A DNA stretch of 64,000 bases from the human T2T-CHM13v2.0 reference genome, Homo sapiens. Shown piece by piece: positions 31,692-33,352 of the stretch. The number at the start of each line of letters is the position of its first letter. The first letter of the stretch is position 1. Below the pieces are notes generated by a model, which was not told where the DNA came from, ran no database searches, and saw only the letters and a list, made by a program, of their open reading frames with translations. The position numbers and the translations under genes were made by a program. The stretch lies in NCBI RefSeq assembly GCF_009914755.1, contig NC_060925.1. One strand, given 5' to 3'.

Positions 31692-31718
31692 CTAAAAATG
31701 AAGAAATTGTCTTCTCAA

Positions 31719-31726
31719 TTAAAGAA
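31719..31726 (-). CDS. CD58: Alternative upstream acceptor of exon 5 (35-nt extension) giving the GPI-anchored isoform ending ...YMNVL*
   Basis: ccttttcttttcag|TTCTTTAA. With the exon 4 G this reads GTT CTT TAA (V-L-stop), matching the C-terminus I recall for GPI-linked LFA-3. Confidence 0.88.
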
Positions 31727-31988
31727 CTGAAAAGAAAAGGTGAAATGTGGAGTTACTGACTGCCTATTAGAGGCCTAAATATGGAAAACTAAGCCAGAGC
31801 CCCATCACCCTGGGATTTCCTGCTATCCTATATGCTTTAAATCAAATCGGCTACAGAGCTGGTCCAAAGAGTTGTTCAAAAATTGGTCAGAACATGATAG
31901 AAAACCAAATGCAAAAACTGTTGACAAAATGGCTAATTTTACCTCGTGCATAAGGCTGAAGATGCAGGGAAGGCTAGAATAGTTTGGA

Positions 31989-32285
31989 CCAGTGCTGTCC
32001 AATAGAAATATAATGCAAGCCACATAAGTAATTTAAAATTTTTGGTATCCACATTACAAAGTAAAAAAAAATGTAAATTTTAATATTTTATTTAACACAA
32101 TGTGTCACAAATATAAAATTATTTCAACATGTACTCAATATAAACATTTTTTAATGAGATATTTTATATTCTTTCACACACGGTCTTAGAAACATATTAT
32201 TTTACACTCACAGCACATGATAATTTGGACTCCCACATTTCAAGTGCTCCATAGCCACATGTAGCTCATGGCTACTATTTCAGAC
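31989..32285. mobile_element. MER33-like hAT-Charlie MITE
   Basis: cagtgctgtccaatagaaatataatgcaagccacat terminus. Confidence 0.75.
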
Positions 32286-32546
32286 ATTAAGACACTGCTC
32301 CCACACATGCATGCATCACTTTCCTGCCCACAGTAGGCATCCGCCTGACCCTAGAACTATGCTAGTGGTTCAGAAGCTTAGTCAATAGGGTTGACTAGAG
32401 CTTATAAAGTTGTCTGTCAACTACAACTAGGCAGCTGGAGCTGTTTCCATTCAACTCTTTCCTCTTCTGAAGATTCCATGCCAAACATCTCACTATTTCC
32501 CAATTAATGACTTTAAGGTTGCTTAAAGGTTGAGATGCTTGCTGAG

Positions 32547-32836
32547 TTTTTTTGTTTGTTTGTTTTTTGAGACAGGGTCTCACTCCATCACCCAGGCTGG
32601 AGTGCAGTGGCACAATCTCAGCTCACTGCAACATCTGCCTCCCTCCCGCCTCAGCCTCCTGAGTAGCTGGGACTACAGGCATGCACCACCATGCCTGGCT
32701 AATTTTTGTATTTTTTTGTAGAGATAGTGTTTCACCATGTTGTCCAGGCTGGTCTCAAACTCCTGGGCTCAAGTGATGCACACAACTCGACCTCTCAATG
32801 TGCTGGGATTACAGGCATGAGCCACCATGCCTGGCC
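32547..32836 (-). mobile_element. AluJ-like
   Basis: gagacagggtctcactc...gccaccatgcctggcc. Confidence 0.88.
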
Positions 32837-33352
32837 TCCAAATTGTTTTTTTTTTTTAAGAACAAATTTTTTCAGATTATCTGGGGCTAACAGTACTGAC
32901 CAGGGGAGTAATTTTCTGTATATTGAATGACTTTTTTTTTTTTTTTTAAGTGAAATCAACCAATTGTTTTGAAGTTCTATGGAAACTCAGTGCCACCTCT
33001 CTTTAGTTCAGGTATCCTGGGTTAGTTCTTTAATTGAGATCTACAACAACACTGAGTGGAAAATGATTTTGGTTTCTGGGAACCAACCTGTTCAGGAGAT
33101 GATTAACTATTATACTGCTATTTGGGGATTAAAATAGATTTTTAAAAAATTTGAGCTCCCAAAATATTTTATGCATTGGGCAATAGCTGAAAACTTTCTT
33201 CAGCTGATCGTTATAATACTGTTTAGTGGAGAGTCAACTGACTGATAATCTATTACTTAGGGATGGATTTTCATGGTATTTACAACTTATAATATGAAAA
33301 TGTTATCATCAGGAAATTATATTTAGCACTGATATCGCAAAATAGTCTAGTT

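What the first reader, a model, noticed from the sequence alone, without database searches (positions are those of the whole stretch)
31713..33039. Perfect 16-nt intronic antisense copy of the CD58 GPI/TM splice-decision site: candidate long-range RNA switch for membrane anchor choice
Seen: in the pre-mRNA, intron 4 reads UCUCAAUUAAAGAACU (33039-33024), and 1.3 kb downstream it reads AGUUCUUUAAUUGAGA (31728-31713). These form a perfect 16-bp duplex, extendable by 4 more pairs (ACAA/UUGU) across a small internal loop. Neither arm lies in a repeat I recognise. The downstream arm covers the AG of the GPI-isoform acceptor, the V-L-stop codons and the best branch-point candidate (UUAAU, about -28) for the TM-isoform acceptor. 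A given 16-mer is expected far less than once in a 2.6-kb intron, though AT richness raises the odds somewhat. Known: long-range duplexes that mask acceptors or branch points regulate alternative splicing, and CD58 occurs in cell-type-dependent GPI and TM forms. Inference: this duplex tunes GPI versus TM versus exon 5 skipping. I know of no description of it.
Basis: partly seen in the sequence, partly recalled or inferred. Interest (0 to 1): 0.85.

Follow-up and report, generated by a model that had tools for sequence, protein, structure and literature searches.

The report
Chance-like 16-base complement at CD58 acceptor
A perfect 16-base antisense copy of the CD58 GPI-form splice acceptor really lies 1.3 kb upstream in the same intron, but it looks more like a coincidence than a proven switch for the membrane anchor.

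Summary
33039-33024 and 31728-31713 (minus strand, CD58 pre-mRNA) are perfectly complementary over 16 nt, and 5 more pairs follow across a 3x2 loop. The downstream arm covers the GPI-form acceptor AG, the V-L-stop codons and a yUnAy branch candidate for the TM acceptor.

Neither arm is a repeat, and their flanks share nothing. For this site the match is rare: 1.65e-4 to 4.5e-4 expected. A perfect 16-mer pair within 3 kb still arises in 6-9% of shuffled 64-kb windows.

By energy the duplex is ordinary. It is 25% GC, with -19.6 kcal/mol for the core and -23.7 extended. 4 of 200 shuffled introns offer an equal partner. The same 2.75 kb holds 51 distinct long-range duplex sites that are as stable. 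Equilibrium folding gives the pairing a probability of about 0.002 and prefers a local 11-bp hairpin over the same acceptor.

The duplex would mask elements of both acceptors, so it is not a clean switch. Conservation and RNA-contact data could not be reached with these tools, and I found no description in print.

Verdict: the sequence match is real, its function is unproven, and I put coincidence at about 0.62. If it is functional, it would be a new member of a known kind.

The parts
33024..33039 (-). Upstream arm in the pre-mRNA (UCUCAAUUAAAGAACU), deep in CD58 intron 4
   Evidence: The 151 nt and the 561 nt around it have no other copy in the assembly over this arm. The region is weakly structured locally (z +1.19).
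31713..31728 (-). Downstream arm (AGUUCUUUAAUUGAGA). It holds the AG of the GPI-form acceptor, the V-L-stop codons and the TTAAT branch candidate.
   Evidence: The surrounding 431 nt are unique in the assembly.
33043..33047 (-). Upstream side of the 5-bp extension (GUUGU)
   Evidence: The duplex goes from -19.6 to -23.7 kcal/mol with it.
31706..31710 (-). Downstream side of the 5-bp extension (ACAAU)
31710..31735 (-). Predicted local 11-bp hairpin (UCUUUUCAGUU / loop CUUU / AAUUGAGAAGA). It encloses the GPI acceptor AG, two further AGs and the TM branch candidate, and it competes with the long-range duplex.
   Evidence: -9.3 kcal/mol. Pair probabilities are 0.94-0.96 for seven of the eight pairs that involve arm bases and 0.65 for the loop-closing pair, in the 2808-nt ensemble. 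It is in the MFE and the centroid of a 101-nt fold, though that fold is not better than shuffles (z -1.31, 20 of 200).
31692..31726 (-). 35-nt stretch included only in the GPI form. The stop TAA is at 31721-31719, and the TM acceptor AG is at 31693-31692.
   Evidence: Hub annotation (exons 31655-31726 and 31655-31691).
31655..31691 (-). Exon 5 as used in the transmembrane form
   Evidence: Hub annotation; translation.
32547..32853 (-). Alu in sense orientation to CD58, lying between the two arms. It has inverted partners in intron 3.
   Evidence: SRP-like Rfam matches at 32567-32835 on the minus strand. Inverted repeats I2, I3 and I5.

Best explanation
The 16-nt complement is a real but fortuitous match in AT-rich intron sequence, not an evolved switch.

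The choice of anchor is made at two complete tandem 3' splice sites 35 nt apart. The proximal GPI acceptor (AG 31728-31727) has a strong pyrimidine tract and branch candidates at 31767, 31753 and 31741. The distal TM acceptor (AG 31693-31692) has its own tract and a branch candidate at A31719.

If RNA structure contributes, the local 11-bp hairpin 31735-31710 is the more economical candidate. It buries the proximal AG and the two intervening AGs. The distant arm pairs at most in a small fraction of transcripts. When it does pair, it masks the proximal AG and the distal branch site together, so it would damp exon 5 use rather than switch the anchor.

Shown: the match, its position, its energies and its rarity. 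Inferred: that it is fortuitous, the branch sites, and any role of the hairpin.
For: (1) Look-elsewhere effect. A perfect pair of 16 nt or more within 3 kb appeared in 6% and 9% of 150+150 shuffled windows. That is a few thousand pairs per 3.1-Gb genome by extrapolation.

(2) Real sequence agrees with that null. Across the window plus 200 kb of neighbouring chromosome, every other perfect pair of 16 nt or more fell into one of four groups:
- low complexity;
- similar flanks;
- words I recognise as Alu (recalled);
- many genomic copies (the 22-mer at 59218 has 223 copies).
One pair is the exception: a 16-mer with no flank similarity and 14 genomic copies.

(3) Energy, not perfection, is what RNA feels. 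A 30-nt target on the arm finds a partner of -23.7 kcal/mol or better in 4 of 200 block-shuffled introns. 104 of 9275 tile pairs in exon 4-intron 4-exon 5 reach -23.7. Those correspond to 51 distinct sites more than 200 nt apart, and 159 sites reach -19.6.

(4) Global fold of 2808 nt. The pairing is absent from the MFE. Forcing it costs 7.5 kcal/mol, and its ensemble probability is 0.0012-0.0017.

(5) The arm is 25% GC. In Kalmykova et al. 2021 (PMC8052449, passages read) the false-discovery rate falls with GC. The strictest filters that keep the validated set include GC >= 33.3%, and even conserved pairs have an FDR of 10% to over 50%.

(6) The duplex covers elements of both acceptors, so it gives no switch logic.
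Against: The exact match is rare for this particular site (1.65e-4 to 4.5e-4 expected). It falls on the one place in the intron where masking would matter.

Neither arm is repeat-derived. The sequence is unique in the assembly. Flank identity is 22.5% and 25.6%, and gapped flank scores are no better than shuffles (82 and 107 of 200; 120 and 106 of 200). No trivial mechanism explains the match.

Its energy is close to the median (-23.1 kcal/mol) of 11,998 RIC-seq-supported human long-range structures, more than 70% of which lie outside conserved blocks (PMC10691357, section 12).

The upstream arm is predicted to be accessible.

Equilibrium folding of a 2.8-kb naked pre-mRNA is a weak guide to what forms in the nucleus, and I ran no positive control with a validated long-range structure.
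Confidence: 0.62

Rival explanations
1. A working long-range RNA duplex. In part of the transcripts the upstream arm pairs with the acceptor region and hides the proximal (GPI) AG and the AG at 31715-31714. Splicing from an upstream branch point (31753 or 31767) would then pass to the TM acceptor. Alternatively, because the A31719 branch site is hidden too, exon 5 use falls. The isoform ratio would depend on elongation rate, helicases or proteins bound to the upstream arm.
For: Site-level rarity of the exact match. The duplex is -19.6 kcal/mol for the core and -23.7 extended, within the range of validated and RIC-seq-supported structures. It is the best partner for the 30-nt acceptor target within intron 4. 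The upstream arm is weakly structured. The 1.3-kb spread is short, and FDR falls with spread. A structure-based splicing effect is already proposed elsewhere in CD58, for an inverted Alu pair and exon 3 (PMC13648404, passages read).
Against: Ensemble probability about 0.002 and +7.5 kcal/mol relative to the MFE. A local hairpin holds the same bases at 0.94-0.96 for most pairs. 51 other duplex sites are equally strong, and 4 of 200 shuffles match it. GC is 25%. It masks signals of both acceptors. I have no conservation, contact or genetic evidence. CD58 had 0 hits in the 3 supplementary files held for the PCCR catalogue paper; the full catalogue is not among them.
Confidence: 0.2
2. A mutational relic: two inverted copies of an old interspersed repeat, terminal inverted repeats of a DNA transposon, or a small inverted duplication or template switch. 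On this reading the match has no RNA function.
For: Inverted repeat-derived pairs are common in this window. Another such pair, 32233-32278 / 33414-33459 (46 nt, 80%), lies in the same intron.
Against: Complementarity stops abruptly at the core. Flanks are 22.5% and 25.6% identical on the diagonal, and gapped flank alignments equal shuffles. Both regions are unique in the assembly. The 16-mer has only 2 other copies genome-wide, against 3 for the reversed control. From my own knowledge, template switches usually act over far less than 1.3 kb.
Confidence: 0.06
3. A DNA-level explanation: two sites for one DNA-binding protein on opposite strands. Each arm holds a TAATTG/CAATTA homeodomain-type core (motif recalled). 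They would look like an RNA duplex, as Kalmykova et al. warn for MEF2 sites.
For: The caveat is stated in PMC8052449 (passages). The arms contain the AT-rich core.
Against: No RefSeq functional element is annotated at either arm (hub table). Sixteen identical bases are far more than such a motif needs. Not tested further.
Confidence: 0.03

Closest known systems
Pairs of complementary intronic regions that regulate human alternative splicing (PCCR-type long-range structures, e.g. ATE1 R1-R5, BRD2 exon 3b; catalogues of Kalmykova et al. 2021 and Margasyuk et al. 2023)
   Same: Two complementary stretches lie in one pre-mRNA, 1.3 kb apart. One stretch overlaps a splice signal. The energy is below the -15 kcal/mol cut-off those catalogues use.
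   Different: Conservation, covariation, contact reads and mutational evidence are all missing here. GC (25%) is below the 33.3% of the validated set. The pairing is perfect but AU-rich. It covers signals of both competing acceptors.
Inverted Alu pairs in CD58 (polymorphic AluY near exon 3, proposed to pair with another Alu and promote exon 3 skipping; PMC6326789 and PMC13648404, passages read)
   Same: Same gene, with an intronic double-stranded RNA proposed to alter splicing. Long inverted Alu pairs are present in this window.
   Different: Those duplexes run to hundreds of base pairs, derive from repeats and concern exon 3. The finding is a 16-bp unique-sequence match at exon 5.
Local hairpins that hide a proximal AG and steer 3' splice-site choice (described in yeast; recalled, not read here)
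   Same: The predicted 11-bp hairpin 31735-31710 encloses the proximal AG and two further AGs, between an upstream branch candidate and the distal AG.
   Different: It is a prediction only. The 101-nt fold is not better than shuffles. It has not been tested in human CD58.

Membership tests
Long-range splicing-regulatory RNA duplex (PCCR type) | Two complementary segments in the same pre-mRNA with duplex energy of -15 kcal/mol or lower and a spread of at most 10 kb | tested here: met
   16 perfect pairs at -19.6 kcal/mol, -23.7 with the extension, 1295 nt apart.
Long-range splicing-regulatory RNA duplex (PCCR type) | Both arms conserved, or changed in a compensatory way, among species | not testable with these tools
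   Only this assembly is held (the answer to says it has no relatives here). The other collections are prokaryotic, viral or plasmid.
Long-range splicing-regulatory RNA duplex (PCCR type) | Contact seen in cells (RIC-seq, PARIS or similar) | not testable with these tools
   0 papers hold both CD58 and RIC-seq. CD58 had 0 hits in the 3 held supplementary files of PMC8052449.
Long-range splicing-regulatory RNA duplex (PCCR type) | The pairing stands out from background complementarity and is favoured in folding | tested here: not met
   4 of 200 shuffled introns give an equal partner. 51 distinct sites in the same 2.75 kb are as stable. Ensemble probability is 0.0012-0.0017 and the pairing is absent from the MFE.
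Long-range splicing-regulatory RNA duplex (PCCR type) | Disruptive and compensatory mutations change and then restore splicing | not testable with these tools
   This is a bench experiment.
Inverted copies of a repeat, or transposon terminal repeats | Similarity continues into the flanks, and the sequence has other copies in the genome | tested here: not met
   Flank identity is 22.5% and 25.6%. Gapped flank scores equal shuffles. The regions are unique. The 16-mer occurs 4 times in the genome including both arms.
Described RNA families (Rfam 15) | A match to a covariance model at either arm | tested here: not met
   Of 7 matches at E up to 1 in 30500-35000, all lie in the Alu at 32567-32835 and none lies at the arms.
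Local hairpin that hides a proximal 3' splice-site AG | A stable stem enclosing the proximal AG between the branch point and the distal AG | tested here: inconclusive
   An 11-bp stem at -9.3 kcal/mol is present in the MFE, the centroid and the ensemble. The region does not fold better than shuffles (z -1.31, 20 of 200). Branch points are only motif matches.

The most novel reading that the evidence does not exclude
The upstream 16-mer is a selected, possibly primate-specific, long-range partner of the exon 5 acceptor region. It competes with the local hairpin. By hiding the GPI acceptor AG and the stop-codon/branch-site stretch, it sets the ratio of GPI-anchored to transmembrane to exon-5-skipped CD58 according to cell type or elongation rate. 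An oligonucleotide against one deep-intronic site could then shift the anchor of an immune co-stimulatory ligand.
Probability: 0.15. Interest if true: 0.55.

Novelty: not a real feature. Interest (0 to 1): 0.25.

Why it matters
GPI-anchored and transmembrane CD58 sit in different membrane domains and differ in adhesion and signalling (review PMC8218816, passages read). What sets their ratio is not explained in the papers I could read. If the duplex were functional, it would be a simple, targetable control point and one more human case of long-range RNA structure at a 3' splice site. If it is a coincidence, as I think more likely, the lesson is about method. A perfect AU-rich 16-mer draws the eye, yet in energy it is one of dozens of equivalent pairings in the same intron.

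Tried and rejected
(1) Repeat or transposon origin of the arms. Rejected on flank comparison and genome copy counts.

(2) A known RNA family at the arms. None was found.

(3) Empirical null from real sequence. I asked for 1 Mb of neighbouring chromosome. My first, ungapped flank criterion wrongly called Alu pairs with indels orphans. I then set aside 5 of the 8 window rows and 7 of the 12 rows in the 200 kb as Alu words from recognition (recalled). I set aside one more row as part of a large inverted repeat. I tested the remaining 6 rows, plus the finding itself, with gapped alignments.

(4) An 81-nt target for duplex scans. The pyrimidine tract pairing with purine runs dominated it, giving -35.4 in the Alu and -39.3 in intron 5, so I replaced it with a 30-nt target.

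(5) Catalogues of long-range structures. CD58 is absent from the 3 held supplementary files of PMC8052449.

(6) The 1998 J Immunol paper on the basis of CD58 alternative splicing (Wallich et al.). I saw it only as reference 51 of PMC5990624, and it is not held. It may describe the acceptors.

(7) PMC2188720 gave only reference-list text.

(9) Searches for a prior description found none. In one search only 12 of 3,140 papers were listed, and none of the 12 mentions CD58. For one search I judged by titles and abstract starts only.

Full report
**1. The observation**

On the minus strand, the sense strand of CD58, the pre-mRNA reads UCUCAAUUAAAGAACU at 33039-33024 and AGUUCUUUAAUUGAGA at 31728-31713. 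The repeat finder reports this pair as 16 nt, 100% complementary, with 1295 nt between the arms (I5). A pattern search with up to 2 mismatches finds just these two places in the window, one on each strand.

GUUGU (33047-33043) pairs with ACAAU (31710-31706) as four Watson-Crick pairs and one G-U, across a 3x2 internal loop.

**2. What the downstream arm covers**

The arm begins with the AG (31728-31727) that precedes the annotated alternative exon 31655-31726. Joining exon 4 to that exon gives ...YMNVL followed by a stop. Joining it to 31655-31691 gives ...YMNGILKCDRKPDRTNSN and a stop. Skipping exon 5 would give ...YMNAPIDW and a stop.

Within 31800-31650, full yUnAy matches have their branch A at four positions:
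- 31767 (CTAAT);
- 31741 (TTCAC);
- 31719 (TTAAT, 27 nt before the TM acceptor G at 31692);
- 31699 (too close to the AG to serve).

By my own reading of the sequence, GTAAC at 31753 is a 4-of-5 match. AG dinucleotides between the two acceptors lie at 31715-31714 and 31712-11.

The arm holds the proximal AG, the V-L-stop codons and the best motif match for a distal branch site. These branch sites are motif matches only.

**3. Is it a repeat?**

No.
- The 151 nt around the upstream arm match only themselves in the 3.1-Gb assembly.
- Of 561 nt (32860-33420), only the last 80 nt (33340-33420) have other copies. There are 12 weak ones plus a 20-nt fragment, and the arm is not among them.
- 431 nt around the downstream arm are unique.
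- The 16-mer occurs 2 times forward and 2 times reverse in the genome, including both arms. The reversed control word occurs 1+2 times.
- On the diagonal the flanks are 22.5% and 25.6% identical.
- Gapped local alignments of 200-nt flanks score no better than shuffles: 82 and 107 of 200 shuffles reach the observed score, and 120 and 106 of 200.
- Rfam gives 7 matches at E up to 1 in 30500-35000, all inside the Alu at 32567-32835.

**4. How rare is it?**

There are three levels.

(a) This site. A first-order Markov model of introns 4+5 expects 1.65e-4 perfect 16-mer complements in intron 4 to any of the 67 16-mers of 31689-31770. For introns 4+5 it expects 4.5e-4.

(b) This window. A non-homopolymer perfect inverted pair of 16 nt or more within 3 kb arose in 6% of 150 windows shuffled in 500-nt blocks, and in 9% of 150 shuffled in 2-kb blocks.

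(c) Real sequence.
- The window has 15 such pairs. One is low complexity and six have similar flanks. Five more are words I recognise as Alu (recalled). One (18510) has similar flanks in a gapped test. One (59218) has 223 genomic copies. Only the finding is a unique-sequence orphan.
- The 200 kb of neighbouring chromosome has 54 pairs. Twelve passed my ungapped filter. I set aside seven of those as Alu words (recalled) and one as part of a large inverted repeat. Of the four tested, three had similar flanks. The one with no flank similarity has 14 genomic copies, against 3 for its control.
- So real sequence is not far from the shuffle null of about 0.25-0.37 per 264 kb.

Extrapolated (my inference), the genome should hold a few thousand chance pairs, with tens touching some acceptor region. 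A scan that reads many windows will meet such cases.

**5. Energy**

The core duplex is -19.6 kcal/mol and the extended one is -23.7. The arm is 25% GC.

With a 30-nt target centred on the arm, the upstream arm is the best partner in intron 4. However, 4 of 200 block-shuffled introns offer one as good.

Across exon 4-intron 4-exon 5, 104 of 9275 tile pairs reach -23.7 and 416 reach -19.6. With arms more than 200 nt apart, that is 51 and 159 distinct sites. One of them, at -23.1, also touches the exon 5 acceptor region (partner near 32569, in the Alu).

A first scan with an 81-nt target was dominated by the pyrimidine tract pairing with purine runs, and I set it aside.

**6. Folding**

In the minimum-energy fold of 2808 nt (34407-31600), the arms do not pair with each other. 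Forcing the 16 pairs gives -748.0 against -755.5 kcal/mol, and the ensemble probability of each pair is 0.0012-0.0017.

The downstream arm instead sits in a local hairpin: UCUUUUCAGUU, loop CUUU, AAUUGAGAAGA (31735-31710).
- The hairpin is -9.3 kcal/mol.
- Seven of the eight pairs that involve arm bases have probability 0.94-0.96, and the loop-closing pair has 0.65.
- It appears in the MFE and the centroid of a 101-nt fold. That fold as a whole is not better than shuffles (z -1.31, 20 of 200).

The upstream arm region is weakly structured (z +1.19, 183 of 200 shuffles fold at least as well), which would leave it free to pair.

Caveat: equilibrium folding of a naked 2.8-kb RNA says little about a protein-coated, co-transcriptionally folding intron, and I ran no positive control.

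**7. Mechanism**

Two complete acceptors 35 nt apart compete. The proximal one has the richer pyrimidine tract (86% against 62% over 21 nt).

The long-range duplex would bury the proximal AG, the AG at 31715-31714 and the A31719 branch candidate at once. Depending on which branch point the TM acceptor uses, that predicts either more TM or less exon 5 overall. It is therefore not a clean switch.

The local hairpin buries the proximal AG and both intervening AGs with no distant partner. It would bring an upstream branch point (31753) to an effective distance of about 36 nt from the TM AG (my arithmetic). If structure matters here, the hairpin is the simpler candidate. All of this is inference.

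**8. Literature**

- A CD58 review says only that the two forms arise by divergent splicing and differ in raft localisation, adhesion and signalling (PMC8218816, passages).
- Structure-linked splicing in CD58 has been described for a polymorphic AluY 97 bp downstream of exon 3 (PMC6326789, passages). It is proposed to pair with another Alu (PMC13648404, passages). That is a different exon and a different kind of duplex.
- Kalmykova et al. 2021 report an FDR of 10% to over 50% even for conserved complementary pairs. FDR falls with energy and GC, and the filter floor that keeps their validated set is dG <= -15.8 and GC >= 33.3% (PMC8052449, passages).
- Margasyuk et al. 2023 report 11,998 RIC-seq-supported structures with median energy -23.1 kcal/mol. 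1,190 of them involve a splice site or an exon-intron contact, and more than 70% lie outside conserved blocks (PMC10691357, abstract and section 12). The finding's energy is therefore typical of real structures.
- I found no description of this pairing. The 1998 paper on the basis of CD58 alternative splicing is not held, and the supplementary catalogues could not be opened.

**9. Verdict**

The sequence observation is confirmed and is unusual for this site. Everything else I could compute makes it ordinary as an RNA pairing. The tests that would decide it (conservation, contact reads, mutants) are outside these tools.

My odds:
- 0.62 that it is a coincidence without a material role;
- 0.20 that it measurably affects exon 5 splicing;
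- about 0.09 for a mutational relic or paired DNA sites;
- the remainder unassigned.

If it is functional, it would be a new member of a known kind.

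Noticed in passing
window 31710-31735 (minus strand): A predicted 11-bp local hairpin (-9.3 kcal/mol) encloses the GPI acceptor AG, two further AGs and the TTAAT branch candidate. 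It is a simpler structural candidate for proximal/distal acceptor choice than the distant arm, but the region folds no better than shuffles.
   Followed up: partly
window 31719-31721 and 31655: The stop codon of the GPI-form mRNA ends 64 nt upstream of the exon 5/exon 6 junction. That is beyond the usual 50-55 nt rule (recalled), so this isoform may be subject to nonsense-mediated decay. Measured isoform ratios may therefore not reflect splice choice alone.
   Followed up: no
window 42631-42928 and 47986-48283; also 32547-32853 against 47968-48290: There are long inverted Alu pairs: 298 nt at 91% within intron 3, and the intron 4 Alu at 77-85% against the Alu that ends about 70-100 nt from exon 3, a pair that brackets exon 4. 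The Alu beside exon 3 lies where papers place the polymorphic AluY linked to exon 3 skipping and multiple sclerosis risk. I did not check that it is the same element.
   Followed up: partly
window 32233-32278 and 33414-33459: A 46-nt, 80% complementary inverted pair in intron 4. The sequence next to the second arm (33340-33420) has 12 weak copies elsewhere in the genome, so these are probably two copies of an old interspersed repeat. In the pre-mRNA their pairing would interleave with the 16-nt pair.
   Followed up: partly
window 59218-59239 and 61137-61158: A perfect 22-nt inverted pair 1.9 kb apart, with no flank similarity. The word has 223 copies in the genome. It looks like the two ends of a DNA-transposon-type element, or two copies of a repeat end.
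   Followed up: partly
L018 about 4313-4572 and 5523-5798 (chr1:115,664,313-115,665,798 of the assembly): A large near-perfect inverted repeat about 0.8 Mb from the window. Perfect blocks of 147, 50 and 52 nt have arms about 1 kb apart.
   Followed up: no
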